64,000 nucleotides of DNA from an uncultured Opitutia bacterium (GTDB lineage Bacteria > Verrucomicrobiota > Verrucomicrobiia > Opitutales > UBA953). The DNA lies in the NCBI GenBank assembly GCA_903855995.1, contig CAIOAN010000013.1, forward strand, positions 78,875 to 142,874, in the 5' to 3' direction. Shown piece after piece: positions 39,481 to 62,884 of the stretch (the first letter of the stretch is position 1; every line of letters starts with the position of its first letter). The notes beneath the pieces were generated by a model, which had not been told where the DNA came from, did no database searches, and worked only from the letters and a program-made list of their open reading frames with translations. Both the position numbers and the translations under genes were made by a program.

Positions 39481-39481
39481 C

Positions 39482-42650: not shown

Positions 42651-42718
42651 TAAAGTGATTAATTGTGTTCGACAAACGGCATCGAGAAACATAGTGTTCA
42701 GGCGTTCACCATACTTTC

Positions 42719-43966: not shown

Positions 43967-43975
43967 CTGAGCAAT

Positions 43976-44001
43976 CCATCTAGGAAGAATCAACTAGATG
44001 G
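43976..44001. promoter_or_regulatory. inverted repeat overlapping the start codon of the 540-aa gene
   Basis: ccatctag-N10-ctagatgg. The ATG at 43998 lies inside the right arm. Confidence 0.35.
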
Positions 44002-45654: not shown

Positions 45655-47187
45655 ATGCCCCAGCCTGATACCAAAACCAGGAATGTATGGATCCTAAAGA
45701 ACAACGGATCAACACCTGAGCAAATTAAGGCCATGGTAGACAAAGGCCGATACGAATTGGACATAGGGCCTTACTACGGTGCCTCAAATCCATTGGATTT
45801 TGAGAATAAACGTGAAGAGTTCATCTCTGCTTGCAATAAAATCGCCCAAGAAGATCGAAACAAATCTAATTCGAAAACATACTTTGGACGTCAACAGTGG
45901 GACCTCTGCTGGGCAGTTAAGCCAGGCGACCGCGTTGTCCTCGTCGACCGAGCCGGCAAAAAGTGGAAAGGTTCATACATAGTCTCAAAGGGTACAGTTG
46001 TCGGGAACTATAGGTGCGAGCAGTCAGACGTCGGCTTTCGACATACGATCGATGTCCAATGGGACGGCAACTTCACCGAGATCGCAAAAGAATCAGACGG
46101 CTTCGAGATGAACATGCTCATGGTAATTGATGCTACCAATGATGCTGAACTCCTTAAACGCATCGGCGAAGCCGAACCAATCTCAAACAAAAAATATACT
46201 CCAATGTCTAAGCCCTTAAAACCACGTCCTGCAGCCAGATTCAAAGGCCCACTTAATATTATACTTTGCGGGCCTCCGGGAACGGGGAAGACATATAACA
46301 CGATCAATAAGTCAGTGGCACTATGTCACAGCAAAGATGACCCGGAGTGGGCCATGCCCTCAGACGACAAGCGTGATGAGTTGGAACGTGAGTTTCAAAA
46401 TCTTATAAATGAAGGACGTATAGAGTTCGTTACGTTTCACCAATCCTACGACTACGCCGACTTCATACAAGGCATCCGCCCGAGCCTAGACAGTGGAACC
46501 GTGACCTTTAATCACGTACCGGGTCCGCTTAAGCGTATCGCTGACAGAGCAGCCGAAAGCTACGATTCTACAACAGGACCAAAGCCTTACGTCCTTATCA
46601 TCGATGAAATAAACCGAGGGAATATTTCTAAGGTGTTCGGCGAACTCATCACTTTGGTCGAAGAAGATAAACGTGGCGTTAACGGCTATGAAGGCGGTCT
46701 GTCGATCTCGTTACTAAATCCAAACACACCTGGAGAGCGCTTCCATCTGCCACCCAACCTCTACATCATCGGAACACTCAATACCGCAGACAGGTCAATC
46801 CAAAGGCTGGATTCCGCCATGCGTAGACGCTTCGACTTTGAGGAAGTGATGCCAAATCCCGACAAACTTAGCGCGAACCCCTTGCTCGTCGACTTCCTCA
46901 AGACCCTCAACAACCGACTCAGGAAAGCACGACCAGATTCGGGGTGCCTAGTCGGTCACGCTTGGCTCATGGATAAGAATGGGAATGGCCTAACAATCGA
47001 CCAAGACATCTGTCGTGCGCTTAATAACAAAGTCATCCCGCTGCTTCGCGAATGGTTCTGGGACCAGTCGGATGAACTGAGAGAGGATATTCTCAACAAC
47101 GCCAGCCAATGCTACAACGGCGATGACCTTAAAAAGCTCACCGAAAGCGACCTCAAGGGGTTCCTTGAAACCTTCAAGAATACCTGA
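45655..47187 (+). CDS. mcrB: McrB-like AAA+ GTPase subunit of a type IV (modification-dependent) restriction system
   Basis: 510 aa. Motifs LCGPPGTGKTY, LIIDEINRGNISKVFGEL, IIGTLNTADRS. Has a ~200-aa N-terminal DNA-reader-like domain. Confidence 0.85.
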   Translation: MPQPDTKTRNVWILKNNGSTPEQIKAMVDKGRYELDIGPYYGASNPLDFENKREEFISACNKIAQEDRNKSNSKTYFGRQQWDLCWAVKPGDRVVLVDRAGKKWKGSYIVSKGTVVGNYRCEQSDVGFRHTIDVQWDGNFTEIAKESDGFEMNMLMVIDATNDAELLKRIGEAEPISNKKYTPMSKPLKPRPAARFKGPLNIILCGPPGTGKTYNTINKSVALCHSKDDPEWAMPSDDKRDELEREFQNLINEGRIEFVTFHQSYDYADFIQGIRPSLDSGTVTFNHVPGPLKRIADRAAESYDSTTGPKPYVLIIDEINRGNISKVFGELITLVEEDKRGVNGYEGGLSISLLNPNTPGERFHLPPNLYIIGTLNTADRSIQRLDSAMRRRFDFEEVMPNPDKLSANPLLVDFLKTLNNRLRKARPDSGCLVGHAWLMDKNGNGLTIDQDICRALNNKVIPLLREWFWDQSDELREDILNNASQCYNGDDLKKLTESDLKGFLETFKNT

Positions 47188-48698
47188 TGAGGGATAGAAC
47201 CCCCATCCGCGCGTACGAGAACGAGTCGCTAGACATCGTCACCAGAGATCCCGACAGGGAAAAAAAACAGATAACCCAAGACGAAGCAGAAGCGATTGAA
47301 GCTCTCGTTGAAGTCGAGGAACTTGACATCAACGAGAGTAAGTGGGCACGCCGTACGAGAGGTAATAAGCTAAAACTTGGCCAATACGTAGGCCTAATCA
47401 CCGTTGGTGACCTGTCCGTCGAGATACGAGCCAAAGTAGAAAAAGAGTCGGAGAACGGCCCCAAGACCGACCTGAATAGCCTCATCAGCTTGTTCCTTGC
47501 AGACTCAGACAAAACCGTGTTCAGCGCAAAATCCTATGAACACAAAGGCGACCAGGAGCCGGAAATATTTAAGTATCTTGTCAGGAATTTTTTCGAAAGA
47601 GTAAACGTTAGCTTAAATTTCGGACTACGAAGCGAATACCACACCCAAGAAGAAGTCCGGAACAACTTCAAAGGACGAATCAATTTTCCTAAATATGCAC
47701 TAACAGTCGGAAGAGAGCCCACCCAACTGCCATGCATTTTTGACGAATTCTCACAAGACACGCTACACAACCAAATCATCAAACAAGCAGTACTTACCCT
47801 AAGCAGGCAAAAGATCATCATGCGGTCTAATCGCAAACTATGGACTTCTGCCGCAGGAATACTCGACCAGCTAGATCATGTCTCCGACACTAACTTCAGT
47901 TACGCTGACATTTCAGGGGAAGAAGCGGATAGCCTAGGACAAAATCACTCAGTTATCCTGGATTTCGCCAAAAGGGTTATAGCGGGAAACTCCCCGTTCA
48001 TCCGCAGTAAAGATATAGGAAGAAAGATGGGGTTCACCATGGTATGGGAGATGTCTGCAATCTACGAAAAGGCCATTGGCACTAAGCTGAGGGAATACGT
48101 GAAAACAAAAATTCATCCGGACTGCGAGGTAGTCCTTCAGGGAAAACTGGGAAAAGACAAAGAACGACTAGCTCCTGGGCACACTAGCTGGAACTCATAC
48201 CTAACACACTCCACGCAGGAACAAAACTTCGCGAAGGAAGACACACCGCAACCCGGCGTATTCCGTCTAAAGCCGGACATCATGATCCTTTCTCCCAAGA
48301 ATGAAGTATTGGCAGTTCTTGATACGAAATGGAAAAACTATTCAGGGTCTGAAACCATAAGGGCTCGTAGACGCCTAAAGCGACGCAAGGCTGATCATGA
48401 AGAAATTACTTACAAGAATGTCTCAAAAGAAGACGCCTATCAGATGCTATCCTACGCATGCGCTAAGAAATCTGGAAAAGGTAGCCCAGAGCCCTTGGTC
48501 GGGCTACTGTTCCCTTCGCTCAGCTCAACAACGCCTGAAGAGTTGTATTTCACTAATCTCAATTCCAGGCTACAACTATGCTGGGTACCGGTGACAAGAG
48601 ACGGATTAGCCAATTTCGATCTTGAAAGTATCCTAGGTGCTAAAGCCATAAAAGAGCTTCGTTCCAGAGCTGGGATAAAGGCACAGCAAGCACCCTAA
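47187..48698 (+). CDS. mcrC: McrC-like PD-(D/E)XK nuclease subunit
   Basis: 503 aa. ATGA overlap with mcrB. Nuclease motif KPDIMIL...AVLDTKWK. Confidence 0.75.
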   Translation: MRDRTPIRAYENESLDIVTRDPDREKKQITQDEAEAIEALVEVEELDINESKWARRTRGNKLKLGQYVGLITVGDLSVEIRAKVEKESENGPKTDLNSLISLFLADSDKTVFSAKSYEHKGDQEPEIFKYLVRNFFERVNVSLNFGLRSEYHTQEEVRNNFKGRINFPKYALTVGREPTQLPCIFDEFSQDTLHNQIIKQAVLTLSRQKIIMRSNRKLWTSAAGILDQLDHVSDTNFSYADISGEEADSLGQNHSVILDFAKRVIAGNSPFIRSKDIGRKMGFTMVWEMSAIYEKAIGTKLREYVKTKIHPDCEVVLQGKLGKDKERLAPGHTSWNSYLTHSTQEQNFAKEDTPQPGVFRLKPDIMILSPKNEVLAVLDTKWKNYSGSETIRARRRLKRRKADHEEITYKNVSKEDAYQMLSYACAKKSGKGSPEPLVGLLFPSLSSTTPEELYFTNLNSRLQLCWVPVTRDGLANFDLESILGAKAIKELRSRAGIKAQQAP

Positions 48699-48832
48699 CC
48701 AAACATCAGGGGCATGGCTAGTTGGGCTTGAATCTATCAAATAGACCCAGTATGGATAATATTTGAGTCATTTAGGATGGTGGGGATTGCAGACGGTTAC
48801 TTGTCCGGTAGACCAGAGGCACCCCATTCACA

Positions 48833-51787
48833 ATGTCCGCCAAGCCTCCCTTCCCTTCACGAGTCTTTTGCGGCTGGAGCGGTCCTATCGCTGACGAGGC
48901 GTCGGCCAAGCTGGTCGAGTTGCTGGCCTCCCAAGGGCAATGGCGCAAGGGCCAGGTGATCGACCTCGAGAAGCACCTGCTTCTCGTACCCACGAAACTG
49001 GCGGCTCGTCTCCTGGGTGAGTCACTGGCCAAGCTGGCGATGGCCCAGGCTGAGAGCGGCCTAATGCTTCCGCGCATCGAGACGCCCGAGCAGTTCCTGA
49101 ACTGGGGCGACTCCCAGCTGGAGGTAGCCGGCGGCTCGGACGAGCTGTTGGCCTGGATCAAGGTGCTGACCGGAACCAGCCGTCGCACCCTGAAGGCGCT
49201 TTTCCCGGCAGCCTCCGACGACATGCCCATGGACGGCAACTTCACCTTCGAAGAAGCCAAGAAGTTCGGAGAACAGCTTAACGAGCTCCGCAACCAATTG
49301 GGGGCAGCGGGCCATTCATTCGGAACGGTCAAGAGCGACCGCGAACCGGCTCGCTGGACGCAACTCGCAGCACTTGAGCAGCAATACATCAACAACCTGG
49401 AAGCGCTTGGGCTTACCGACCACAACCAACTGCGCGCCAATCTGGCTAAGGGTGAAGAAGGAGGCCCAGAATGCATCGAACATATCTGGGTCATCGGCAT
49501 CCCTGACCCTGACCTCCTATTGGTTCAGGCCCTCGACAATCTGAAGGAGACCATCGGAGTCACCTACATGATCGGGGCGGATGAATCCGTCTCCGATGGC
49601 TTCGACGACCAAGGGCGGCCGATTCCGGCCTTCTGGAAGAACCGTGAGGTCGATTGGCCTGAGTTCCAGTCCTGCGTACACCTGGCCTCCGACCCTAATG
49701 ACAGCTTCCTCAAGCTCCGACGGCTGATCGGCGGTAAGGTTCCGCAGTCGGGCGTTCTCGCGATCTGCGCCTGCGATCGGCAAAAGGACTCCCCCAAGGT
49801 GGAGAATCTGGTCAAAGATATGGGGGGGAGCGCGATCAACCCTCTAGGGCGAGCCCATGGTGAACACCCCCTTCATCACGCTCTACGTGCCTGGGCGGAT
49901 TGCCTCAAAGGCGGCGACCTAGACTTCCAGGCCCTTCGCCATGCGACCACGATCCCGATGGTCCACAACTTCATCACCGGCGGCGACAAGCCAGAGCACT
50001 TTACCGAAAGTAACAGACTCCTCGACATGCTGGACCAGGATATCCTACGCTTGCCCGCCAGCGAGTTGATCAGGTGGCTCCCTACTCGACCGGAAACAGG
50101 TGATGACCGCGCTAATAAACATATCAAGAAGAGCAACCAGGTCGTACCGTACCTGAAGAAGGCCCTAGAAAAGCGTCAGGCCCATCTCGCCCTCGGATGG
50201 CGAGAGGCCCTAGGAACTACCCTCGAAGACCTCATCGGCAAGGAAGGCATCGACTGGAAGGACGAGGCATCCGCCTTCATGGGAGATGTCGCTGAGCACC
50301 TCGAGAACACCGCACAAGAACTCGAAGCGGCCCTCTCTGGCCAAGGCCTGGAACTCGGGTCGGCAGAAGCCATTAAACTTACCCTTGAGACGGCGGGCGA
50401 GAAGCGCCACCGCCCCAAGCGTGACACTAAGTCGGTCAATATCCCTGGCTGGATCGAATCGACTTGGGAACCCGTACCTCACCTAATCCTGCTCGGACTC
50501 AACGATCACCTCATCCCGAAGACACCTCACGCTCACCCATTCCTCCCAGGTAAGCTCAGGGAGGCACTGGGATTACCCAGCAGCGACACCATCTTCGCGA
50601 CAGCCTGCTATAACCTCGAGCAGCTTTGGCGCCGACGAGTCGGCAAAGGTCGGCTCGACATCATCGTCCTGCAGAAGGACCAGAACTCTGAGCCGCTACG
50701 GCCTTCTCGCATCCTGTTCACGGGTAGCAGCCAGTCCCTCACCGCTAAGGTGACCAAGCTATTTGACGACGCCCCTGAGTCGGAAGCCAAGCCGTACTGG
50801 GAGATCCCCAATGAGCATAAGCTCATCCCCAAGGCCGACCCGGCGACCGTCGAACGAATCAAGTCGAAGATGAATGCCACGTCTTTCTCAGCCTACCTGG
50901 AAGACCCAGCGAATTTCTGGCTCTCCAAGGTCGTCGGTCTCTCCGAGGAGGAACACGACGGCGGCGAAATGAGTTCCGCTGGTTTCGGCAACATGATTCA
51001 CGCGGTCATGGAAGCCTTTGCACGACCACATCTTGGCAAAGAACGCAAAGGAGAACCCGTTGACGCTCTCACCGAAGAACTTCTTGGTGATTTCGCGCGA
51101 CTCATCGATGGACACGTCACCGAGAAGTTCGGTGGCCATCCAGAAGAATCAGTCCTTTTACAAAAAGCCACCGCACTAGCGCGCCTGGGGGCGTTCGCCC
51201 CGATACAGGCTGGACTCTGGGCCGAAGGCTGGGTGATCAACTCCGTGGAAGCTAGTCTGCTCGATACGAAAGTAGGCGAAATGAACATCGGCGGGCGGTA
51301 CGATCGCCTAGACTACCGCATAGTAGGCGAAAAGAAAGAATGGCGCGTCTATGATTACAAAACCTCCCGCGAGGCGAAGACCATCACGAATGCCCACTAC
51401 GGGAAGCCACCCGACGGTGCGCAGGATTTTCTCTTCAAACCGCCAGGCAGCGAATCCGAGCTCCAAGCACGCTGGCGGAATATGCAGATGCCCGTCTATT
51501 ACGAGTGCCTGAAGCGTGAGCTAAATCTAGACGAGAATTCCAGCCTTACTCCCTGCTACATTTCGCTACCTGAAGATCTTACCAAGACCCAGATTAGCGA
51601 TTGGAATGACTACCCTGCCTTCCATCCGGAAGCCTTGAAAGTGCTAAAGGAAATCATCCACCGAATCCGTGAGGCCAAGGCCACTGACATGGCGCCATCA
51701 AGAGACGGTGCTAAATATTCGGCCATTCCCTCCATGGCAAAACGCTCCATGGATACCTATCTCCACACCGACCTCCTCGGAAACTAA
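48833..51787 (+). CDS. AddB/RexB-like PD-(D/E)XK nuclease subunit (no Walker A seen)
   Basis: 984 aa. C-terminal nuclease motif GRYDRLDY ... WRVYDYKTS. Directly precedes the AddA-like gene, matching the addB-addA order. Confidence 0.65.
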   Translation: MSAKPPFPSRVFCGWSGPIADEASAKLVELLASQGQWRKGQVIDLEKHLLLVPTKLAARLLGESLAKLAMAQAESGLMLPRIETPEQFLNWGDSQLEVAGGSDELLAWIKVLTGTSRRTLKALFPAASDDMPMDGNFTFEEAKKFGEQLNELRNQLGAAGHSFGTVKSDREPARWTQLAALEQQYINNLEALGLTDHNQLRANLAKGEEGGPECIEHIWVIGIPDPDLLLVQALDNLKETIGVTYMIGADESVSDGFDDQGRPIPAFWKNREVDWPEFQSCVHLASDPNDSFLKLRRLIGGKVPQSGVLAICACDRQKDSPKVENLVKDMGGSAINPLGRAHGEHPLHHALRAWADCLKGGDLDFQALRHATTIPMVHNFITGGDKPEHFTESNRLLDMLDQDILRLPASELIRWLPTRPETGDDRANKHIKKSNQVVPYLKKALEKRQAHLALGWREALGTTLEDLIGKEGIDWKDEASAFMGDVAEHLENTAQELEAALSGQGLELGSAEAIKLTLETAGEKRHRPKRDTKSVNIPGWIESTWEPVPHLILLGLNDHLIPKTPHAHPFLPGKLREALGLPSSDTIFATACYNLEQLWRRRVGKGRLDIIVLQKDQNSEPLRPSRILFTGSSQSLTAKVTKLFDDAPESEAKPYWEIPNEHKLIPKADPATVERIKSKMNATSFSAYLEDPANFWLSKVVGLSEEEHDGGEMSSAGFGNMIHAVMEAFARPHLGKERKGEPVDALTEELLGDFARLIDGHVTEKFGGHPEESVLLQKATALARLGAFAPIQAGLWAEGWVINSVEASLLDTKVGEMNIGGRYDRLDYRIVGEKKEWRVYDYKTSREAKTITNAHYGKPPDGAQDFLFKPPGSESELQARWRNMQMPVYYECLKRELNLDENSSLTPCYISLPEDLTKTQISDWNDYPAFHPEALKVLKEIIHRIREAKATDMAPSRDGAKYSAIPSMAKRSMDTYLHTDLLGN

Positions 51788-51791
51788 GCCC

Positions 51792-54700
51792 ATGAGCACT
51801 CCCCTCTCCCATCGATTCGGCTCCGAGGTCGTCCGTGCGTGCGCCGGTGCGGGCAAGACCACACGGCTTTCCAAACGGATCATCAAACTCCTAGTCAACG
51901 ACGTCCCTCCTGAGGAGATCATCGCCCTGACCTTCACCCGGGCAGCCGCCGGTGAATTCGTAGCCCGCCTACTCAAGATGCTAGCAGGTGGGGCAAGCAG
52001 CCCCGAAGGAGCCGCCAAGCTCGCCAAGGAACTAGAACTCCCCCCCAAGCGGGCGAACGGCGAACCATGGGGTCAGACATTCTTTCAGGAAAAACTAAAA
52101 CTGACCCTGATGTCCGTCAACCGGATGACCCTAGGCACACTGGACAGTTTCTTTGCAAAAATCGTGAACAACAACCCAACCGAACTCGGTCTGGATGTAG
52201 GACAGGTCAAGACCTCTAGCGAACTAGACGGACCGGCCATCCGCGCCCAAATCACTAAGTTCGCGATGGAACAAGTATATCAGCGCGACCGTCAGGCGAT
52301 CAAAGACCGACTCTCTGAACTCAAACTTGGCAAGGAATCCGCAACCCCGCTGGAGAACTTCAAGGCATTAGTCGAAGAGCTCCACGAGACCTTCCTACTG
52401 GCCAATTCCCCAGAAATCTGGGGCATGCGCCAAAGCATCTGGCCACAGGGTTCGCTCCTTTTCGATAAACCGACGGAAGAGAAAAGCCGAGAAGCCTTCG
52501 CACACATGAAAGCCTGGATAGCGGCATTGAAGCACGAAAGAAAGTTCTCCATCACTCTTTTTAGAAATCACATCAAAGGACTCGAAGAAGCCGGGGAGCG
52601 GGGAGTAGTTAGCAAGACGATAGCCGATAACTACTTTAAATACTATACCGGGCTTGCGAACGCCAAATCAGGTGCCGGCTCAAGTTACACCCACACCCAT
52701 CACGAATCTGGCGACCACACCCAGGAAGTAGACGGCGATACGTGTGCGGCCTACAAGGTATGCATTCGGCATGCTTTATCAGTGTATTTTGAAGGAAAGT
52801 CTAACCAGACACAGTCCGCCTATTCGCTACTCCACACTTATGACCTCTTTTACCGCGATGAACTGCGCAAGTCGGGGCAGCTCGGCTTTAGCGATTACAT
52901 CAACCTACTGCTTAGCCTGCCACCTGACCGTAAACTCGATCTCGAGTACCGCCTTGACTGCAAGTTCCGGCATTGGCTCTTCGACGAGTTCCAGGACACC
53001 AGTAGCCGACAGTGGAAAGTCCTGAATAACTATCTCACCGAAGGCACAAAGCATAAGGATGAATGGTCCACGACTTACTTCGTAGGCGACCCTAAGCAAA
53101 GTATCTTCAGTTGGCGCGGAGGAAACCCAAAACTTCTCGGTCAACGTGAGGCGAAAACACGGGATGAATATGGTGACGATGCCATCATTCCTCTTAAAAA
53201 GACCTTTCGATGTGCCGTGCCGATTGTCGACATGGTCAACGAGCTCTTAGGCCAACCGACCCAGCTCGACAGCATCTTACCTGCGACATCCAAGATCACT
53301 TGGATGAGCAACTTCGAACCACATGAAAGCGCCGTCCAGACGGAGAAAGAGAAAGGTGAAGCCTTTTGGGTCCGCTTAGCGGAGTCGGAGGACAGCTCCT
53401 TGACGCTGGAAGCGCAGTCAAAGTGGATCGTCGAAAACCTCAAAAGCTCCGGCCTCACCGAAGGGCGTTACCTGCGTCCTGGATTTACCTGTGCCATCCT
53501 TGTTTCCCAAAACGGGCAGGCCGCGAAAATCGCTGACATCATCCGTGCAAACGGCCTGGAAGCCGCTGACGAGGCTGACACGCCTATCGCCATGGACAAC
53601 CCCTTCACCGCTGGCTTCGTGGGCATCCTGCGTAACTGTGCCCACCCCGACGACAGTCTATCCAAAGGCTTGGCGAATATGTCTCCCACCGCTAATGCAT
53701 ATGTGGAGAAGGCTGGGGGCTGGGAGGCATGTCGAACCAAGGTCGCCGAACTGTTTTATGCCAAAGGGGCGGCTGAAACACTTCGAGAGCTGACCAAGGA
53801 CGTCTCCCTAAGCGAAGGAGATAAAGCGCCCGAATCGGCAGCTAACTCATGGAAATTCCTGCGCATGAGGCTGCGACAACTCCTGACCCTCGGCGCCCAA
53901 TACGATGAACAAGGCGAACGAGATCTCAGGGGGGCCGCAGACTACATCGCGAATAGCTCCTTGCGCGATAGTGCGGACCCAACCGCGATCCAGGTGCTGA
54001 CAACCCATCGATCTAAAGGCCTGCAATACACGGCTGTCTACCTTCCCTGCCTAAACAGCGGGTATCACTACTTCGGACGGGAAGAGAATCAAGCCCCGCT
54101 GATTCTCGATGACCCCGAGACCTTTGAGCCTAAGTGGATCCTACACCGCCCAGCTAAGCATATACGTCAACTTGACGACGAGTTCCTCAAGGCACAGCGC
54201 ATCGAACAGTCGGACGAAGCCTACGAAGCACTCTGCAAGCTATACGTCGGGATGACCCGCGCGGAGCGACGCCTAGTGCTGATTACGGAAACTCCCGGTG
54301 AAAATAACAGCCCAACGAAAGAGGATCAGTACGACTATGCCAAAATGATCGAGAAGATACTCGGCTCCAAGACAACTCAGCCTATCCCTGAAAACACTAT
54401 CGTCAGGCATTATGGAGATTCATCTTGGATCTCACTCCTCGAAACATCGGTGCGCACAACTAGCGCAGCTGAAGAGAACGACGGCCCGAAGGTTGAATTC
54501 ACTCCAGTCGAATCGCCCTTGAAGTTCCTACCTTCTGACAAGGAACCCACCACTTCTGATAAGGAACCCACCAAGCGGTACCCCTTCCGATCCCGAACCA
54601 AGGTAGACCTTACGAAACCTAAGGGGAAGGACATCGGAAACGTCATCCACGCCCTCATGGAGCCCCTGGAATGGGACGTCCAAGGCTTCCTCCTAGACCT

Positions 54701-55091
54701 CCAGGCAAAGGCGCCTGGGAAGGCAACTGAGGCCCTGCATCAACAAGCCAAGGCCATCATCGAGGGCTGCCTGAAGTCCAAGTCGGTCGCCGCAGCCCTT
54801 TCAGCCAAGCCGGAAGGCGGCACCCTGCTCAAAGAGCGTAAGTTCTCCCTGATGATCGAGTCAGGACAGGTCCTGACCGGTAACGCTGACCGCATCCACC
54901 TCGTTCCTGGCAAGTCCGCCGTCATCTTCGATTACAAGTCGGACACTTGCGGCCTCGAGGAGCTCAAGGCCAAACATGCCCGCCAGATGAGCATGTACCG
55001 TACCGCCACCTCTCGCATCTGGGGAATACCCGAAGACAAGATTCAGTGCTTCCTGATTCACGTGCGCAAGGGGGAGCTGGTGGAGTGCTGA
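51792..55091 (+). CDS. AddA/RecB-like UvrD-family helicase with C-terminal PD-(D/E)XK nuclease
   Basis: Start at ATG 51792 (MSTPLSHRFG), 4 nt after the AddB-like stop. Motifs ACAGAGKTTRL, LFDEFQDTS, TTHRSKGLQY, YVGMTRAERRL, nuclease NADRIHL...AVIFDYKSD. Confidence 0.8.
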   Translation: MSTPLSHRFGSEVVRACAGAGKTTRLSKRIIKLLVNDVPPEEIIALTFTRAAAGEFVARLLKMLAGGASSPEGAAKLAKELELPPKRANGEPWGQTFFQEKLKLTLMSVNRMTLGTLDSFFAKIVNNNPTELGLDVGQVKTSSELDGPAIRAQITKFAMEQVYQRDRQAIKDRLSELKLGKESATPLENFKALVEELHETFLLANSPEIWGMRQSIWPQGSLLFDKPTEEKSREAFAHMKAWIAALKHERKFSITLFRNHIKGLEEAGERGVVSKTIADNYFKYYTGLANAKSGAGSSYTHTHHESGDHTQEVDGDTCAAYKVCIRHALSVYFEGKSNQTQSAYSLLHTYDLFYRDELRKSGQLGFSDYINLLLSLPPDRKLDLEYRLDCKFRHWLFDEFQDTSSRQWKVLNNYLTEGTKHKDEWSTTYFVGDPKQSIFSWRGGNPKLLGQREAKTRDEYGDDAIIPLKKTFRCAVPIVDMVNELLGQPTQLDSILPATSKITWMSNFEPHESAVQTEKEKGEAFWVRLAESEDSSLTLEAQSKWIVENLKSSGLTEGRYLRPGFTCAILVSQNGQAAKIADIIRANGLEAADEADTPIAMDNPFTAGFVGILRNCAHPDDSLSKGLANMSPTANAYVEKAGGWEACRTKVAELFYAKGAAETLRELTKDVSLSEGDKAPESAANSWKFLRMRLRQLLTLGAQYDEQGERDLRGAADYIANSSLRDSADPTAIQVLTTHRSKGLQYTAVYLPCLNSGYHYFGREENQAPLILDDPETFEPKWILHRPAKHIRQLDDEFLKAQRIEQSDEAYEALCKLYVGMTRAERRLVLITETPGENNSPTKEDQYDYAKMIEKILGSKTTQPIPENTIVRHYGDSSWISLLETSVRTTSAAEENDGPKVEFTPVESPLKFLPSDKEPTTSDKEPTKRYPFRSRTKVDLTKPKGKDIGNVIHALMEPLEWDVQGFLLDLQAKAPGKATEALHQQAKAIIEGCLKSKSVAAALSAKPEGGTLLKERKFSLMIESGQVLTGNADRIHLVPGKSAVIFDYKSDTCGLEELKAKHARQMSMYRTATSRIWGIPEDKIQCFLIHVRKGELVEC

Positions 55092-55095
55092 TGTC

Positions 55096-56814
55096 ATGGC
55101 TAAAATTTACCCAGAGAAGTACGTCGGAAAAGATGGATCGGAAAAGCGGTTCTTCGAAAAGCTGCGCGGGCTTAACTCCACCCAATGGACTTTCTTTCAC
55201 TCGGTTGATATTGCCAGACATTCGGAGAAAAGGTCCGGTGAGATTGATTTCATCGCCGTATCAAGAACCGCCCTGTTCACCCTTGAGGTAAAGGGAGGAC
55301 GAATCAGCAGGACTGCTGGCGCATGGTACGCAAACGGCCAGGAGATGGAGGAGAGCCCGGTCAAGCAAGCCATCCAGAACTACCATGCATTTGATAAGTA
55401 CCTCAAGAGGTCGAAACTGCCCCGGCTACCCGGAGGCCACTGCTGCGTCTGGCCGGATGTCGCTTTTGAAACGACCACAGGAGAGTGGGAGAAAACGTGC
55501 ATCATCGATAAAGGAGGTAGCGAAATGCTCTTCGATTCCCTGCAAAAGGCAGAGAATCACTTTCGGGATGAGGCAACACGGCTTAGAAGATCAACTCCTA
55601 CCCTTTCCGAGGAAGAATATAGCCGGCTTTGTGGCGCAATCCTACCCGACATCGTACAGCATGTATCAACGAGCCAGGCCCTAGCACGAGATAAGGTGGA
55701 GCTCTTACACCTTAGCCAATCCCAGCTTGGTGTGCTCGATAGAATTGAAGGCAATCCGCGAATGGTCATCTCTGGCCCCGCGGGATCTGGAAAAACCATC
55801 CTTGCGTACGAAGCCTGTAAAAGGATTTTGCGTGAGAATCCTCAATGGAAAGGAGCTTTCGTCTGCCAATCCAACTTCCTGGCGAAAGACATCGATCGAC
55901 GTTACCAGGAGGACAAACTACATGAGCGCCTACTGATTCTTACCCTAGAGTCATTAGCACCATTTTATATTATAAACGGACTCGGCATAGACATGCATGC
56001 TGCCGGAGAAAGCAAGCAACCGATTGAAGTGCGTTTCGTAGGGCACGGACACGCACCAAACCAAACAGCTGGCATCAATTCAAAAAATCTCTTGGATTTC
56101 GTAGTGATTGACGAAGGACAAGACATCAGGAAATGCCCTATATTCCTTACGATGCTCAATTCATGCATCAAAAAGGGCCTGAGCGATTGCAGGCTTATGT
56201 GGTTCCAAGATCTCGACCAAAGTATCGCCGAAAAGTTGGCTCCCAGCTCTCATAAAAAAATGTATCGCGACATCATCGACCCCGACCCGTTAGCCAATTG
56301 CTTTCATTACAAACTTGATCCAATTAATTACAGAAACCCAACCGAGATAGCCAATGTATCCGCCAAGCTGATCGGCCTAAAAACAAAGTCATCATTCAAC
56401 GGAAACATCACGACCTGCATCAAGTTAGTCAAAAGTCAGGAGCCACTCAGCGAACTCAGTAATTTAGTTAAAGAGCTAACCGGAAAAGATGTACCCGATT
56501 CAGATATTGTCGTCGTATCTGTGACCGGCGAATCGTCCAAACGAATCGAGCAAGGCCTAAGGGTATGGGGTAAACTTCTTGCGTACGATACAGAAGAATA
56601 TGACCGATTGGCTCCAAGGATACACCCCAAAGACACCATCCTGTGGTCCAGACTCATCGACATAAAAGGTCGTGAATTCCCAGTCGTAATCCTTATCGAC
56701 TTGCCCGAATTCAAAGACGCTTTTGATAAATATCTGATGTATGTGGCGATGACCCGCGCCAATAGTTTGCTAATTGCGGTTGGATCGGAATCCCAACTTA
56801 GACCACTTACTTAA
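55096..56814 (+). CDS. NERD-domain + SF1 helicase (paralog of 27145..28845)
   Basis: 572 aa. Motifs SGEIDFIAVSRTALFTLEVKGG, ISGPAGSGKT, VVIDEGQDI, IKGREFPVVILID ... YVAMTRA. Starts 4 nt after the AddA-like stop. Confidence 0.8.
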   Translation: MAKIYPEKYVGKDGSEKRFFEKLRGLNSTQWTFFHSVDIARHSEKRSGEIDFIAVSRTALFTLEVKGGRISRTAGAWYANGQEMEESPVKQAIQNYHAFDKYLKRSKLPRLPGGHCCVWPDVAFETTTGEWEKTCIIDKGGSEMLFDSLQKAENHFRDEATRLRRSTPTLSEEEYSRLCGAILPDIVQHVSTSQALARDKVELLHLSQSQLGVLDRIEGNPRMVISGPAGSGKTILAYEACKRILRENPQWKGAFVCQSNFLAKDIDRRYQEDKLHERLLILTLESLAPFYIINGLGIDMHAAGESKQPIEVRFVGHGHAPNQTAGINSKNLLDFVVIDEGQDIRKCPIFLTMLNSCIKKGLSDCRLMWFQDLDQSIAEKLAPSSHKKMYRDIIDPDPLANCFHYKLDPINYRNPTEIANVSAKLIGLKTKSSFNGNITTCIKLVKSQEPLSELSNLVKELTGKDVPDSDIVVVSVTGESSKRIEQGLRVWGKLLAYDTEEYDRLAPRIHPKDTILWSRLIDIKGREFPVVILIDLPEFKDAFDKYLMYVAMTRANSLLIAVGSESQLRPLT

Positions 56815-57497
56815 AAGTAAACGATAGCGCCCGGCGGATGCGATGTCATCGCATCCCTACCTATTGAAATTTCTGCCACCTGCCACCCGAGGCTGCCACC
56901 AGCCACCTGGAATGAATGCAATCAGTGCATGACGTAGTCCTGTCCCTGCCCTGCGTCCACCGTGCGGCGGCCTGGTTTCGCAGCGGTTCACCATGCCAGC
57001 AGATCCCCGCACGACCTAAGGTCGTGGCAGTGTCTGTTGATTTCTATTACGATTTTGCTCGACAGAATGAGAAGCTTCTGATGTACTGTCTTCCTCTGAG
57101 ATAACCAATGCCGAGCACTTGCCGTCGGGGCACCTAATCGAACCGACGGCCGCTTAAGCGACTCAGAAAGCGTGGTAAAACCACGCGGGGCCACTCTGTT
57201 CCGCCGATCCAAACCGGCATCACAGCTCCCCGGGGGCAGTCATGCCCGCATGGCTCAAGTTGACCAGTTGATCAGAGGCCCGGAGGCCCAGAACGCGAAA
57301 AACGACCTAAAACAACGAACTAAGAACTAAGAACAGCCAGAGCAACTAGGGCAGCACGCGGTGCTGCCCCTACCCTGCACGGCTAAGCCGCGAGCGGTTA
57401 GCGGTAAGCGGTTAGCGGTTGGGAACGTCGCGAGACAAAGACCCAACGAACCAAGAACTAAGAACATTTTAACAAAGAACACCTTTTCTTAACCTTT
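56815..57497. repeat. mosaic intergenic repeat block with a ~190-nt unique core (57040-57230)
   Basis: Hairpin plus CCCTACC at 56836-56861, GGTGGC-word array (inverse) at 56873-56910, a module at 56928-57003 shared with 63329-63405, 57270-57294, 57346-57375, and gcggttagcggtaagcggttagcggtt at 57394-57420. Confidence 0.85.
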
Positions 57498-58223
57498 ATG
57501 CACAACAACCCCACACTGCCACCCACCAAACTCGTCCTGCGCACCTACACGACCGACCTCCCGGCCGACGCGGTGAAGCGCAAACTCCAGGAGCTGGTCG
57601 AGAAATCCGCGCTCTTCAACACGTCGTTCCTCAACGGGGAATGGGACGAGGACACCCGCATCGGCGGCCTGGACCTGCACGGCGACATCATCATCCGCCA
57701 TCGAACGGAACGTGCCCAGCGCGAGCTGACGATCGAACACCGGGCCGGCGATGACCCTCTAGTAGTCGAGATCGTGTCCACATTGGGCAAAGCGCTGACG
57801 CGCCGCGCCACCCTCCCCGTCCCGGGCCTGAACCGCCCCAAGGGCATGGCCTACTTCTTCGAGATGATTCAGGGCAACCCCCTAAAGTCCAAGGTCCTCG
57901 TCACGGACGCCGTGGTCGAATCCGCCCATGACTTGCGCTTCGAGGATTACCGCGCAGCCCGCCGAGCGCTGGATTTTCTCGCTAAACTCCGGACGATCAA
58001 GCGCACCTACGATGATCAAGACAGGCACACCCAGACGCAGTATCACCTGGCGAACATCAAGCACCCTGACCCAAAGGTCTGCCTGTTCGAGGGCAAGAAG
58101 CTCTTCCTGCGGAATCAGATCGTGGTGAAGCCGGATCTCGACGGCCCGCACCTGACGATGCACTTCACGCGGCTGGCTAAGGGGAAGATATTGGTGGGGT
58201 GGGCCGAGGAGACGCCGTTCTGA
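57498..58223 (+). CDS. unknown-family protein, paralog A
   Basis: 241 aa. Shares conserved blocks with 59627..60355: PPTKL, RIGGL, GDIIIRHRT, EHRAGD, GMAYFFEMI, DAVxExAHDLxFxDYRxAR, PKVCL, HFxxL, VGWxEE. Confidence 0.65.
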   Translation: MHNNPTLPPTKLVLRTYTTDLPADAVKRKLQELVEKSALFNTSFLNGEWDEDTRIGGLDLHGDIIIRHRTERAQRELTIEHRAGDDPLVVEIVSTLGKALTRRATLPVPGLNRPKGMAYFFEMIQGNPLKSKVLVTDAVVESAHDLRFEDYRAARRALDFLAKLRTIKRTYDDQDRHTQTQYHLANIKHPDPKVCLFEGKKLFLRNQIVVKPDLDGPHLTMHFTRLAKGKILVGWAEETPF

Positions 58224-58661: not shown

Positions 58662-59261
58662 TCAACCTTCACCGATCACCGCAAGGTGCACGATGGGATT
58701 ACCCAAGGCCTCAATGGGCCTGGTGTCTTGGCTAACAATCTGACGCCAGACCGCCCACGTGCAGTAATCGGCAATCTGCAGTTCGAGACTGGAAGCAGAC
58801 GAATGGAAGTGAACCGTGCGATGTCCTGCGCCCTGACGGACGGCCTTCATGATGGCCTTGCGAGAACGCTGCAAAGGCACGCGATCGGCATATACGGGAC
58901 AATCGCCGGAGGCCGGCTGCGATAACGACAAGACCAACTTGAAGAGGTCGACGTAAACCTGAGACAAATCCTCAGGCGGCTTAGTGCAGGTCGACTTATC
59001 CAAGACGATTGCGAAGACCTGGGAACCAGCACCCGAAGCCGCCAAACGACGCATGAAAGCCCCTCGGACGAATGGGGTATTGGCGCTCGCATGGAATGAC
59101 TCGATATCATGCCCCTGCGCATTTAGCTCATAGCGCAGACAAGACAGTTCACCGGAGCGGATGGCGCTGATATCCAGCAAGATTGCGCAGACCATCAGGA
59201 ACGGGGTCCCTTTTCCGGTGAAATCGAAGTTTCCTGCTTCATCTAGGAATAGACATTTCAT
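58662..59261 (-). CDS. DUF3800-family protein (second copy)
   Basis: 199 aa. N-terminal CLFLDEAGN and C-terminal LELQIADYC. Confidence 0.6.
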   Translation of the reverse strand: MKCLFLDEAGNFDFTGKGTPFLMVCAILLDISAIRSGELSCLRYELNAQGHDIESFHASANTPFVRGAFMRRLAASGAGSQVFAIVLDKSTCTKPPEDLSQVYVDLFKLVLSLSQPASGDCPVYADRVPLQRSRKAIMKAVRQGAGHRTVHFHSSASSLELQIADYCTWAVWRQIVSQDTRPIEALGNPIVHLAVIGEG

Positions 59262-59626: not shown

Positions 59627-60355
59627 ATGCAACCGCCTACCTCGATTCCCCCGACGAAGCTCCAGATTCGCGCCTATGATTGTAAATTGACCGCCCGGAA
59701 GGTGAAACTGGGGCTGGAAAAGCTGGTGGAGTCCTCCCCGGCCTTCAATGAGTCCTGGCTGCTGGGGGAATATGACATCGGCTCCCGCATCGGCGGCCTG
59801 GGGCAATACGGGGATATCATCATCCGCCACCGCACGGTGATGCGCGGCAAGCATGAGCTGACGGTCGAGCACCGCGCGGGCGACGAAGCCATGGCCCTCG
59901 AGATCGAGGCGGCCTTCGCCAAGGAGCTGACCCCGAAGGAGCCGCGTATGGCCCCGGGCAAGAAGCGCCCGGAAGGGATGGCCTATTTCTTCGAGATGAT
60001 CCGTACCTCGACGCTGAAGAACAAGGTGCTCATCGCGGACGCGGTCCTCGAGGAAGCCCATGACCTGTGCTTCGACGATTATCGCGAGGCCCGGGCCAAG
60101 CTCGAGTTCCTGAGCATGGTCCCGCGTCTCGGCGTCCTCCACACCAGCCTGGATGAGCGCATCCAGAAGGCCTACCGGGAAGCCAATCAGGTCCACGCCT
60201 GCCCGAAGGTCTGCCTCTACCAAGGCAAGAAGATCGCCCTGCCCCACCGGATGGTGGCGATCTCGGTGAAGCATGACTACATCCTGACCCTACATTTCGC
60301 CAAGCTGCCCGGATGCAAGATCGTGGTGGGATGGGTGGAGGAGAGGCAGTTCTGA
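59627..60355 (+). CDS. unknown-family protein, paralog B
   Basis: 242 aa from ATG 59627 (MQPPTSIPPTKL, aligned to the paralog A start). The tracked ORF starts at 59594. Confidence 0.65.
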   Translation: MQPPTSIPPTKLQIRAYDCKLTARKVKLGLEKLVESSPAFNESWLLGEYDIGSRIGGLGQYGDIIIRHRTVMRGKHELTVEHRAGDEAMALEIEAAFAKELTPKEPRMAPGKKRPEGMAYFFEMIRTSTLKNKVLIADAVLEEAHDLCFDDYREARAKLEFLSMVPRLGVLHTSLDERIQKAYREANQVHACPKVCLYQGKKIALPHRMVAISVKHDYILTLHFAKLPGCKIVVGWVEERQF

Positions 60356-61666: not shown

Positions 61667-61737
61667 TTGGCCCTGCGGGATTCGAACCCGCGACTTGCGG
61701 ATTATGAGCCCGCTCTTACCGGCTGAGCTAAGGGCCT
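61667..61737 (-). tRNA. tRNA-Met(CAU)-like gene, possibly atypical or degenerate
   Basis: The reverse complement reads AGGCCCT TA GCTC AGCCGGTAA GAGC GGG CTCATAA TCC GCAAGTC GCGGG TTCGAAT CCCGC AGGGCCA A. D-arm, T-arm (GGTTCGAATCC) and anticodon loop CTCATAA are perfect. Only 3 nt lie between the D-stem and the anticodon loop, which is ~3 nt short of canonical, and positions 1:72 would be A.A. No encoded CCA. Confidence 0.65.
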
Positions 61738-61928: not shown

Positions 61929-61963
61929 GTAAAAAATTAAGAAGGGGTGAGATTAGCCCCTTC
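61929..61963 (-). terminator. rho-independent terminator (minus strand)
   Basis: Stem gaagggg/ccccttc (61941-61947 / 61957-61963) with a 9-nt loop. On the minus strand it is followed by ttaatttttt. Confidence 0.6.
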
Positions 61964-62806
61964 AACGCTGACCTTTCACCGGATTAGGTCTTCCAAAGAC
62001 GGCAGTGGAAGACTTCCCGATTTATCCACGTCCGCGGTTTGCACCTGCGGCGTAGCCAGCACGACTGCCTTTTTAAAGATGTGGCGATTCATCTATGCAC
62101 GACCCGCTACTCAAACCTGGATTCCCCGTCTGCCTTGCGAGCAGCTAGACGCGCTAGCGTCTCCGTGTTCACCGTGTTTAACGGTCCTCGTCTTGCGGAC
62201 GAGAACGCGGCTGAGTTCACCGAAGTGCCCAGCATTAAGTCGCTTTCGCGGATCGTTGGTAACGACGTTGCGTTTTGATATCCACTAAAGGACAAGGCGC
62301 TACCCCTGCCGACTTGAATAGCAAACCAATGGAGATGCGCGTTACCTGCGGTTCGAATTCCTTTTGAGAACCCGAATGCCACACACCTCCTGTAGGGACC
62401 CGACGGCCCCCCACGGAATCGCAAGTTCGCGTGACCCGGTTACCCGGACCCCGTCCACTCTCGATCTGGCCTGACGCCCTCGGCTTCCGCCTCGAACGTC
62501 CGACCTTGGCTTCGATCTCAATCCTAGAAGTCTAGTTGCGCGCAGTGGTCGTCACTAACGTTACCGCACTTGCTACGAAGTCATCCTCGCAAGGCTTTGC
62601 GCACCTTCTTCAAACCTAGTTCCGCCGCAGCGAAACTCTCAGATCGGCCAGTGCTTAGTCGTCCGGCCATCACAGCCTGGCGCAGTCCTATTGGAGGATA
62701 CTGCTTTCACCACCTCACGGTGGCATATCTTATGGACCCTAAGCGGCCCGTTGTTTGTCGCCCGGCGTTTGAGATGATCGCGTGCAGGGCTATGTTAAAT
62801 GAACAG
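61929..62806 (-). ncRNA. candidate ~0.9-kb structured non-coding RNA (class unknown)
   Basis: No convincing ORF on either strand. The minus strand has a promoter-like TTGACA-17-CATATT at one end and the terminator at the other. Many short perfect stems are capped by GNRA or UUCG loops when read on the minus strand (ccacc-GTGA-ggtgg, cgc-GAAA-gcg, cac-TTCG-gtg). Confidence 0.35.
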
Positions 62807-62812
62807 GACCTG

Positions 62813-62841
62813 AATATGGTGTTAACAGTTATTTATGTCAA
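62813..62841 (-). promoter_or_regulatory. sigma70-like promoter candidate for the ncRNA
   Basis: On the minus strand, TTGACA (62841-62836), a 17-nt spacer, then CATATT (62818-62813). It sits inside the only AT-rich patch of this region. Confidence 0.3.
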
Positions 62842-62884
62842 ATTATAGTTATGTTAGCAGTCGTAAAGTGTTGGTGTGTAATGA

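What the first reader, a model, noticed from the sequence alone, without database searches (positions are those of the whole stretch)
48833..56814. AddB/AddA-like helicase-nuclease pair forming one operon with a NERD-helicase inside the island
Three plus-strand genes are separated by only 4 nt each (stops at 51787 and 55091, starts at 51792 and 55096):
- an AddB-like PD-(D/E)XK protein
- an AddA/RecB-like UvrD helicase-nuclease
- a NERD + SF1 helicase

AddAB is normally a housekeeping double-strand-break processing enzyme. Here the pair sits between McrBC and repeat-flanked accessory genes. Its GC is intermediate (hand-counted lines 50-60% against ~77% for one line of the left-arm cluster). 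It is also translationally linked to a third, nuclease-related helicase. This may be a dedicated DNA-end-degrading defence module rather than the cell's repair enzyme.
Basis: partly seen in the sequence, partly recalled or inferred. Interest (0 to 1): 0.65.

Follow-up and report, generated by a model that had tools for sequence, protein, structure and literature searches.

The report
Swappable AddAB-like DNA-end-processing gene cassette
The three genes are real and form one operon, but they are best read as one interchangeable version of the cell's RecBCD/AddAB-type DNA-end-processing enzyme: related freshwater Verrucomicrobiota carry very different AddAB pairs or a RecBCD operon between the same flanking genes, and the NERD-helicase is an optional extra of this version.

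Summary
There are three + strand genes of 984, 1099 and 572 aa with 4-nt gaps, inside a roughly 45-kb defence island. They encode an AddB-like PD-(D/E)xK protein, an AddA-like UvrD helicase-nuclease and a NERD + SF1 helicase.

The pair is not a canonical AddAB. It belongs to a small, long-branched clade: about 13 of more than 1100 50%-identity clusters. Only this clade has NERD-helicases nearby; none of 77 canonical PVC/Dehalococcoidia loci does.

The main result came from the conserved downstream gene p241. In related genomes the same slot holds at least five AddBA types that are only 31-51% identical to each other, or a RecC-RecB-RecD operon. One relative (L120) keeps both flanks (McrC 76%, p241 85% aa), yet its AddB/AddA are only 31-32% identical to the window's. 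Third-codon-position G+C (GC3) also marks the trio as foreign (0.69/0.64/0.52 against 0.84 for the flanks).

The NERD-helicase is missing from most versions, where a small 137-147-aa protein usually follows instead. It also evolves faster than AddB.

Verdict: a horizontally exchanged cassette of a RecBCD-class enzyme, probably the resident one and doubling as anti-phage nuclease. Whether a second AddAB/RecBCD exists in this genome could not be tested.

The parts
48833..51787 (+). AddB-like subunit (984 aa). The C-terminal PD-(D/E)xK nuclease is intact. There is no Walker A motif and no four-cysteine Fe-S cluster.
   Evidence: Pfam PDDEXK_1. addB_alphas scores 41 bits, far below the cut-off of 486. 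Motifs. Clade placement.
51792..55091 (+). AddA-like SF1A (UvrD-type) helicase with a C-terminal RecB-family nuclease (1099 aa).
   Evidence: Pfam UvrD-helicase/UvrD_C. addA_alphas 184 bits and recB 141 bits, both below cut-off. Sequence matches in the PDB to AdnB, AddA, PcrA and RecB. Motifs.
55096..56814 (+). NERD nuclease domain (residues 1-110) fused to a compact SF1 helicase (572 aa). It is specific to this version of the cassette.
   Evidence: Pfam NERD. PADLOC RTasNERD-Hel 82 bits, Nhi 17 bits. AlphaFold2 pLDDT 86; best Foldseek matches are SLFN11, IGHMBP2, nsp13, RecD2, Dna2, Upf1 and RecD. It diverges faster than AddB: 56% against 83% identity to L004. GC3 is 0.52.
48663..48832 (.). 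Left junction of the cassette: the end of McrC plus the intergenic stretch.
   Evidence: DNA homology with L120 ends at window 48662. The McrC stop is at 48698 and AddB starts at 48833.
56815..57030 (.). Right junction of the cassette. It contains a hairpin-type intergenic repeat at 56833-56862, present in 4 copies in the window.
   Evidence: Homology with L106 starts at 56842 and with L120 at 57030. Repeat families D6, D8 and D11.
45655..48698 (+). McrB-McrC, the upstream flank. It is conserved in L120 (McrC 76% aa) and replaced by other Type IV-like pairs in L004, L090 and L091.
   Evidence: Pfam AAA_5 and McrBC; contexts.
57498..58223 (+). p241, the conserved downstream flank gene of unknown fold, with native composition (GC3 0.84). 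It is the anchor that revealed the alternative enzymes.
   Evidence: 120 homologue clusters. Contexts. AlphaFold2 pLDDT 80 with no structural match. GC3.
59627..60355 (+). p242, a paralogue of p241 (48% identity), part of the conserved right flank.

Best explanation
Window 48.7-57.0 kb is one version (allele) of a hypervariable chromosomal slot in freshwater Verrucomicrobiota. The slot always seems to hold a RecBCD-class helicase-nuclease.

Shown:
- The AddB-AddA pair belongs to a small, deeply diversified clade of the PVC-type AddAB family.
- Related genomes with the same flanks carry other members of this clade (31-51% identical) or a RecC-RecB-RecD operon at the same place.
- The flanks have native codon composition and the trio does not.
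- The third gene, a NERD nuclease + SF1 helicase, is present only in this version. A 137-147-aa protein takes its position in many others.

Inferred:
- AddB/AddA form the usual heterodimer that loads on double-stranded DNA ends. AddA translocates 3'->5' and the two PD-(D/E)xK domains cut the two strands.
- This is the cell's resident end-processing enzyme. Like RecBCD, it also destroys linear phage DNA, for example DNA cut by the neighbouring McrBC and restriction systems.
- Turnover of versions is driven by phage inhibitors of such enzymes.
- The NERD-helicase was added later, as its composition is more foreign. It either rides the opposite strand as a RecD-like second motor with a third nuclease, or acts alongside as an Nhi-like effector.
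For: Cassette swap. L120 keeps McrC (76% aa) and p241 (85% aa), but its AddB/AddA are 31-32% identical to the window's. DNA homology stops at 48662 and resumes at 57030. L098 and L114 share HA-domain (69-71%) and p241 flank genes, yet carry RecCBD and L097-type AddBA respectively.

Survey anchored on p241 (80 loci). At least 22 have AddBA of at least 5 types, 7 have RecBCD, and none has a NERD-helicase.

Clade. All slot AddBA, the window and L010-L012 form one clade (13 of 91 AddB, 16 of 82 AddA) that excludes 77 canonical loci. The clade has about 13 clusters at 50% identity among 1141 clusters with E<1e-30.

Composition. GC3 is 0.84/0.85/0.84 for p241/p242/HD_4 and 0.69/0.64/0.52 for AddB/AddA/NERD-helicase.

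Background. RecBCD and AddAB are known functional alternatives with complementary distribution (PMC1193525).

Other points. All catalytic motifs are intact. The Foldseek hits for the NERD-helicase lean towards SF1B / Upf1-like helicases. The flanks are not phage-borne and no integrase was seen.
Against: - No whole genome could be searched, so a canonical AddAB elsewhere is not excluded. Nearly all sampled Verrucomicrobiota have the canonical type.
- The relatedness of the compared genomes rests on flank genes in metagenomic contigs. Both flanks are visible in only one case (L120).
- p241 could be a travelling partner of these enzymes rather than a fixed chromosomal marker. A distant p241 homologue (22-26%) sits beside the NERD-helicase and AddBA in the Opitutales MAG L011.
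- The trees are neighbour-joining without support values.
- No sequence similarity links the NERD-helicase to RecD.
- Physical association of the three proteins was not tested.
Confidence: 0.55

Rival explanations
1. This is the first reader's view: a dedicated accessory defence module. The genome keeps a canonical AddAB elsewhere for repair. The island-borne AddBA + NERD-helicase, and the alternative AddBA or RecBCD versions in relatives, are extra end-degrading anti-phage systems.
For: - The clade is separate, rare (about 1% of family clusters) and long-branched.
- Its composition is foreign.
- It lies in a defence island and is exchanged like a cassette.
- NERD-helicases, a domain class used in Mokosh and Nhi-like defence (PMC10952713), are linked only to this clade.
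- In L011 the AddBA has lower G+C (0.36-0.43) than its surroundings (0.47-0.49).
- Canonical AddBA is otherwise general in Verrucomicrobiota.
Against: - The slot holds RecBCD in some relatives and is never visibly empty. Accessory systems usually show presence/absence variation.
- RecBCD and AddAB rarely coexist.
- No PADLOC model matches AddB, and AddA gives only generic UvrD hits.
- In L011 the cluster lies among carbohydrate and housekeeping genes, not in an island.
Confidence: 0.3
2. The NERD-helicase is an independent, single-gene Nhi-like defence gene that inserted downstream of addA and borrows its transcription. It neither binds AddBA nor depends on it.
For: - It is absent from most versions of the slot and from L009 and L164.
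- Its GC3 (0.52) differs from that of AddBA (0.64-0.69).
- It diverges about 2.5 times faster than AddB.
- A second, only 27% identical NERD-helicase ends the DISARM-like operon in the same window, so such genes attach to different operons.
- NERD + helicase proteins are known stand-alone defence candidates.
Against: - The 4-nt coupling is kept across orthologues that are 56-94% identical, and their divergence follows the same order as AddB.
- NERD-helicases lie next to this AddBA clade in three different arrangements: co-directional in the window, divergent and adjacent in L011, and divergent 9 kb away in L094. They lie next to none of 77 canonical loci.
Confidence: 0.3
3. The enzyme and its 'flanks' (p241, p242, HD_4, tRNA, GOLLD RNA) all belong to a mobile element such as a prophage remnant or an integrative element. 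The enzyme would then be cargo of that element, not an occupant of a chromosomal slot.
For: GOLLD RNAs and tRNA clusters are typical of phage-derived regions (my own knowledge). The tRNA-GOLLD pair is conserved next to the locus in L090, L100 and L114.
Against: - No relative of p241 or AddB was found in 2.9 million viral contigs.
- No integrase or transposase domain was found in the right flank.
- p241, p242 and HD_4 have the same high GC3 as the biosynthetic genes of the left arm.
Confidence: 0.08

Closest known systems
AddAB helicase-nuclease (Bacillus subtilis AddAB, PDB 3U4Q; PVC/alphaproteobacterial-type AddBA)
   Same: The gene order is addB-addA. AddA is a UvrD-type motor with a C-terminal RecB-family nuclease. 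AddB has a C-terminal PD-(D/E)xK nuclease. HMMER places the AddB-like protein in one family with more than 1100 clusters of PVC/Dehalococcoidia AddB.
   Different: Scores are far below the equivalog cut-offs. No PDB AddB is matched by sequence. There is no Walker A motif and no four-cysteine Fe-S cluster in AddB. It forms a separate long-branched clade, is exchanged between strains, and has a coupled third gene.
RecBCD (exonuclease V)
   Same: There are three co-directional, tightly spaced genes in the order scaffold/nuclease-like subunit, SF1A helicase-nuclease, second SF1 helicase. RecC-RecB-RecD occupies the same slot in relatives. The structural hits of the third protein include RecD and RecD2.
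   Different: There is no RecC domain. BLAST finds no similarity between the NERD-helicase and RecD (E 0.38). The third protein carries its own NERD nuclease. The third gene is dispensable in sister versions.
Nhi / Nhi-like NERD-helicase defence proteins; NERD-helicases associated with defence reverse transcriptases (PADLOC RTasNERD-Hel)
   Same: The architecture is an N-terminal NERD nuclease plus an SF1 helicase of about 520-570 aa. The protein aligns end to end with RTasNERD-Hel (82 bits).
   Different: The Nhi model scores only 17 bits. There is no reverse transcriptase nearby. The gene is translationally coupled to addA rather than standing alone.
AdnAB (mycobacteria, PDB 6PPU)
   Same: It gives the best sequence match in the PDB for the AddA-like protein (AdnB, 56 bits). 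It is also a heterodimeric helicase-nuclease without an Fe-S cluster (the Fe-S point is my own knowledge).
   Different: The match covers only the N-terminal ATP-binding motif. In AdnAB both subunits are ATPases, whereas the AddB-like protein here lacks a Walker A motif.

Membership tests
AddAB | Adjacent addB-addA genes expressed as one unit | tested here: met
   There is a 4-nt gap, no internal terminator-like site, and the spacing is conserved in relatives.
AddAB | AddA: SF1A UvrD-like helicase motifs plus a C-terminal RecB-family nuclease | tested here: met
   Pfam UvrD-helicase/UvrD_C. AGAGKT at residue 19, DEFQD at 398 and DYKS at 1047.
AddAB | AddB: C-terminal PD-(D/E)xK nuclease | tested here: met
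   PDDEXK_1 at residues 680-946. GRYDRLD...DYKT at 841, invariant in the family alignment.
AddAB | AddB iron-sulfur cluster (four cysteines bracketing the nuclease domain, as in B. subtilis AddB) | tested here: not met
   Only C892 and C908 lie in the C-terminal 390 residues, and only C908 is invariant.
AddAB | Score above the NCBIfam equivalog cut-offs (addA/addB of alphaproteobacteria or Gram-positives) | tested here: not met
   41 bits against 486 for AddB; 184 against 860 and 118 against 708 for AddA.
AddAB | Chi recognition and RecA-dependent repair function | not testable with these tools
   This needs genetics or biochemistry, or whole genomes for oligomer statistics.
RecBCD | RecC subunit (RecC_N and related domains) | tested here: not met
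   Protein 1 has no RecC domain. Genuine RecC occurs in the relatives L098 and L142.
RecBCD | RecD: SF1B 5'->3' helicase as third subunit | tested here: inconclusive
   There is no sequence similarity to RecD. The Foldseek top hits are mostly SF1B / Upf1-like (RecD2, Dna2, Upf1, IGHMBP2, RecD), but UvrD also matches and TM-scores are 0.33-0.45.
Nhi-like NERD-helicase defence | NERD nuclease + SF1 helicase in one polypeptide | tested here: met
Nhi-like NERD-helicase defence | Match to the Nhi profile; stand-alone gene | tested here: not met
   The PADLOC Nhi model scores 17 bits over 37 residues. The gene is coupled to addA.
Defence reverse-transcriptase (DRT) systems with a NERD-helicase | Adjacent reverse transcriptase | tested here: not met
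   No reverse-transcriptase domain was found in the neighbours.
Gabija | GajA (OLD-family ATPase-TOPRIM nuclease) next to a GajB UvrD helicase | tested here: not met
   The GajB hits on AddA are generic UvrD similarity, and no GajA is among the neighbours.

The most novel reading that the evidence does not exclude
RecBCD-class enzymes are exchanged like immune cassettes at a dedicated chromosomal slot in freshwater Verrucomicrobiota: RecBCD and a dozen AddAB types that are only 31-51% identical replace one another between native flanks, driven by phage inhibitors. In this version the NERD-SF1B helicase is a true third subunit. That would make it an AddAB/RecBCD hybrid with two motors of opposite polarity and three nucleases.
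Probability: 0.25. Interest if true: 0.85.

Novelty: new variant of a known kind. Interest (0 to 1): 0.62.

Why it matters
RecBCD and AddAB are usually treated as stable housekeeping enzymes whose type is fixed at the level of large taxa. Here, genomes that share flanking genes at 67-88% protein identity carry either RecBCD or any of several AddAB pairs that are only 31-51% identical. All sit at the edge of a defence island.

If this is confirmed in complete genomes, end-processing enzymes evolve like defence genes, by cassette replacement. That would be direct genomic evidence for an arms race with phage anti-RecBCD proteins. It would also raise the question of how Chi recognition keeps pace with enzyme replacement.

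The NERD-helicase version offers a natural test of whether a second motor and nuclease can be bolted onto AddAB, which bears on how RecBCD's three-subunit design arose.

Tried and rejected
- Known defence system. PADLOC gives no hit for AddB and only generic GajB/UvrD hits for AddA. No GajA or reverse transcriptase is nearby. Three full-text searches found no described AddAB + NERD system.
- The small p137/p147 protein that replaces the NERD-helicase in other versions as a stand-alone NERD domain. hhalign gives a probability of 0.2%, so this was rejected.
- The NERD-helicase as a RecD homologue by sequence. BLAST gives E 0.38, so this was rejected at sequence level.
- Function of p241. There are no Pfam, PADLOC or PDB sequence hits. 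The AlphaFold2 model is good (pLDDT 80) but has no Foldseek match with E<=0.001.
- Phage origin. Neither p241 nor AddB has relatives in viral contigs.
- Naming the organism from cluster names. Only one named member was found ('Verrucomicrobiota bacterium'). The first cluster look-up gave no names.
- The window's own species in the GTDB scan. It was not among the loci returned; the best match was 39%.
- A second AddAB/RecBCD in the same genome.
- First tree attempt. It timed out and was redone with fast MAFFT and my own distance calculation.
Full report
**1. The observation**

The window has three + strand ORFs at 48833-51787, 51792-55091 and 55096-56814. I read both junctions. TAA ends at 51787 and ATG starts at 51792; TGA ends at 55091 and ATG starts at 55096. 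Each gap is 4 nt.

- Protein 1 (984 aa) has a C-terminal PD-(D/E)xK domain.
- Protein 2 (1099 aa) has UvrD helicase domains.
- Protein 3 (572 aa) has a NERD domain followed by SF1 helicase motifs.

All catalytic motifs are intact. No + strand promoter- or terminator-like site lies inside the trio. Gene calls on identical public contigs agree.

**2. The surroundings**

The window is a large defence island of about 16-61 kb. It lies between an aryl-polyene-type biosynthetic cluster (1-15 kb, G+C 0.61-0.67) and tRNA-Met at 61667-61737. The island holds:

- a DUF2779 protein and a GmrSD;
- a DISARM-like minus-strand operon (UvrD-like helicase, DrmA, DrmB and a second NERD-helicase), with a divergent Dcm;
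- Dcm + HATPase_c_3 + Z1 + HNH;
- Dcm + an R.HinP1I-like enzyme;
- McrBC, then the trio.

A member of the >=90% cluster of one left-arm protein is labelled 'Verrucomicrobiota bacterium'. That is the only taxonomic handle I obtained.

**3. What kind of AddAB this is**

The pair scores far below the NCBIfam equivalog cut-offs: AddB 41 bits against 486, AddA 184 against 860. AddB matches no PDB chain by sequence. AddA matches AdnB, AddA, PcrA and RecB only over helicase motifs. AddB lacks both a Walker A motif and the four-cysteine Fe-S cluster of Bacillus AddB.

A word-indexed search found only 13 clusters: ten full-length at 71-84% identity plus one partial protein (76% over 69% of the query), the window's own cluster, and then a gap to 24-26%. 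An exhaustive HMMER search of 1.84 billion representatives found 3070 relatives, 1141 of them with E<1e-30. There is a clear score gap after the first 13, at 362-1770 bits and 32-76% identity. Those 13 match only the special clade described next. From the 14th onward they match canonical AddB of Puniceicoccales, Dehalococcoidia and Verrucomicrobiaceae.

**4. A distinct clade linked to NERD-helicases**

A scan of GTDB species genomes returned 80 AddB-AddA loci, out of at least 565 relatives. Most are from Opitutae, Verrucomicrobiales, Kiritimatiellae, Lentisphaerae, Dehalococcoidia and Planctomycetota, at 24-30% identity. The best, two Opitutae MAGs (L010, L011), reach 39% for AddB and 37% for AddA.

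In neighbour-joining trees of both proteins, the window lineage plus L010-L012 form one long-stemmed clade apart from all others. Profile searches of all loci found a NERD-helicase only next to this clade. None of the 77 canonical loci has one within 10 kb. Three arrangements exist:

- co-directional and coupled (window, L004, L090, L091);
- divergent and adjacent in L011, where a distant p241 homologue follows the NERD-helicase and the neighbours are carbohydrate and housekeeping genes;
- divergent with 9 kb of island genes in between (L094).

The NERD-helicase of L094 is sister to the window's in a tree. That of L011 is no closer than generic NERD-helicases.

**5. The third gene is variable**

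Between the window and L004, the identities are Z1 87%, p241 88%, AddB 83%, AddA 74% and NERD-helicase 56%. In L009 (AddB 71%, AddA 66%) the third gene is a 147-aa protein instead. In L164 a window-type AddA C-terminus is also followed by such a small gene.

**6. The key result: a slot with alternative enzymes**

The downstream gene p241 (57498-58223) has a paralogue, p242 (59627-60355), and 120 homologue clusters. Contexts of its homologues showed:

- L097 (p241 72%): AddB-AddA-p241 with no NERD-helicase. Its AddB and AddA are only 37% and 34% identical to the window's.
- L098 (p241 67%): RecC-RecB-RecD, then p137, an HA-domain protein, p241 and DUF3800.
- L099 (p242 75%): RecB-RecD upstream.

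A metagenome scan anchored on p241/p242 gave 80 more loci. At least 22 show an AddA or AddB upstream, of several deeply different types. Seven show RecBCD, in two orientations and two sequence types. None has a NERD-helicase. A conserved small protein (p137/p144/p147) usually follows the enzyme, whether that enzyme is RecBCD or AddBA. For example, L098 p137 and L009 p147 are about 80% identical by eye. All slot AddBA fall in the special clade. Versions are 31-51% identical to one another.

**7. Breakpoints**

L120 shares DNA homology with window 48311-48662 (the 3' end of McrC, 74%) and again from 57030 (81%). In between, its AddB/AddA are 31-32% identical at protein level. Homology of L106 with the window starts at 56842, 28 nt after the NERD-helicase stop codon. 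So the NERD-helicase belongs to the exchanged block.

L098 and L114 share HA-domain and p241 flank genes but carry RecBCD and AddBA respectively. L114 is 96.6% identical in DNA to window 61934-62958.

GC3 tells the same story:

| Group | Genes | GC3 |
|---|---|---|
| Right flank (native-like) | p241 / p242 / HD_4 | 0.84 / 0.85 / 0.84 |
| Left arm (native) | three biosynthetic-cluster genes | 0.69-0.81 |
| Trio | AddB / AddA / NERD-helicase | 0.69 / 0.64 / 0.52 |
| Upstream flank | McrB / McrC | 0.54 / 0.50 |

The flanks are native and the trio is imported. The NERD-helicase probably came from a different source or at a different time than AddBA.

**8. Interpretation**

RecBCD and AddAB are functional alternatives with complementary distribution (PMC1193525). 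Finding them as alternatives in one slot that is never visibly empty points to replacement of the resident end-processing enzyme. It does not look like an additional module.

On the other hand, several features are hallmarks of genes under phage pressure: rarity, the long branch, foreign composition, island position and cassette-like turnover. RecBCD-class enzymes are known anti-phage nucleases and targets of phage inhibitors (my own knowledge).

I therefore rate 'exchangeable version of the resident RecBCD-class enzyme with a defence role' at 0.55, and 'extra dedicated defence module' at 0.30. The difference hinges on a whole-genome search that I could not run.

**9. The NERD-helicase**

The AlphaFold2 model is confident (pLDDT 86). 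Its best structural matches are nuclease-helicase or SF1B / Upf1-like proteins: SLFN11, IGHMBP2, nsp13, RecD2, Dna2, Upf1 and RecD. UvrD also matches, and TM-scores are modest. It has no sequence similarity to RecD.

Its position mirrors recD in recC-recB-recD, and a 5'->3' motor would complement AddA. This is an inference only. The rival view is an independent Nhi-like gene that attached to the operon. Support for that view:

- its distinct composition;
- its faster divergence;
- its absence from most versions;
- a second NERD-helicase at the end of the DISARM-like operon.

The NERD domain is already listed for Mokosh and Nhi-like systems (PMC10952713).

**10. Limits**

- All comparisons use metagenomic contigs.
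- Relatedness is inferred from flank genes.
- The trees are neighbour-joining without support values.
- The organism name rests on one cluster member.
- No experiment or co-folding was possible.

**11. Novelty**

I found no description of an AddAB + NERD-helicase operon, or of strain-level RecBCD/AddAB replacement, in three full-text searches. I classify the finding as a new variant of a known kind. The most novel reading is an immune-style hypervariable slot for end-processing enzymes combined with a hybrid three-subunit machine, which I put at about 0.25.

Noticed in passing
window 61944-62391 (-), next to tRNA-Met 61667-61737 (-): There is a GOLLD RNA (Rfam RF02032, 179.8 bits, full model) directly beside the tRNA. 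The same tRNA(s)-GOLLD pair lies downstream of the slot in L090, L114 and L100. Window 61934-62958 is 96.6% identical in DNA to L114, so the RNA probably extends to about 62.95 kb. This is a chromosomal GOLLD in a Verrucomicrobiota genome at the edge of a defence island.
   Followed up: partly
window 27145-37181: A DISARM-like system lies on the minus strand: a UvrD-like helicase (33838-35670), DrmA (30612-33806, 717 bits), DrmB (28855-30639, 259 bits) and a second NERD-helicase (27145-28845). That NERD-helicase is only 27% identical to the first and sits where a DrmC nuclease would be expected. A divergent Dcm methylase is at 35781-37181.
   Followed up: partly
window 57498-58223 and 59627-60355; L011 6596-7342 (-): p241 and p242 form a paralogous family of about 240 aa with 120 clusters in freshwater metagenomes. 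It has no Pfam, PADLOC or PDB match and no structural neighbour despite a good AlphaFold2 model. The genes lie downstream of RecBCD or AddBA in relatives, and beside the NERD-helicase in a distant Opitutales MAG. The function is unknown; they may be partners of these enzymes.
   Followed up: partly
L098 7821-8234; L099 4828-5262; L009 8456-8899 (not in the window): A small basic protein family (137-147 aa, starting MSKHETPMTRWYWRTV...) is encoded right after RecD or AddA in 13 loci. It is highly conserved even when the enzyme upstream is of a different class. It has no Pfam hit and is not a NERD domain by hhalign.
   Followed up: partly
window 15.8-16.3, 18.3-18.5, 20.4-20.7, 56.83-57.01, 59.3-59.6, 60.4-60.6, 61.2-61.3, 61.76-61.87, 62.9-63.4 and 63.9-64.0 kb: There are families of G+C-rich intergenic repeats (REP-like). 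They include a hairpin element GGCGGATGCGATGTCATCGCATCC in 4 copies, one of them 19 nt after the NERD-helicase stop codon. They also occur in related contigs and sit at the cassette junctions, so they may be substrates for cassette exchange.
   Followed up: partly
window 35781-45620 and 25334-27139: Further defence genes: Dcm + HATPase_c_3 + Z1 (PADLOC Helicase_II/MzaC-like) + HNH_2; Dcm + a 540-aa protein with an R.HinP1I-like C-terminus; and a GmrSD. In L004 the Z1 pair is kept (87%), but the restriction cassettes are replaced by BglII + Dcm and a ScoMcrA_N / DUF2357 pair.
   Followed up: partly
window 58662-59261 (-) and 19756-20325 (-); L100 2796-2859; L094 2500-2563: There are two DUF3800 genes in the island. 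In relatives the Rfam motif 'DUF3800-IX RNA' lies beside DUF3800 genes at the same locus.
   Followed up: no
L107 161-4640 (-); L009 9884-15179: Three tandem HSP70-like genes, and in L009 a protein kinase plus an HSP70-like gene, are inserted between the enzyme slot and p241 in some relatives. This may be another island cassette.
   Followed up: no
L098 8422-9927; L114 8400-9902: A 501-aa protein made of seven HA (helicase-associated) domain repeats lies between the enzyme and p241. It is present both with RecBCD and with AddBA.
   Followed up: no
window 445-15308: The left arm is an aryl-polyene-type biosynthetic cluster: ketosynthases, a ketoreductase, an aromatic amino-acid lyase, an ApeI-like dehydratase, acyltransferases, a LolA-like protein and a 775-aa exporter.
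   Followed up: no
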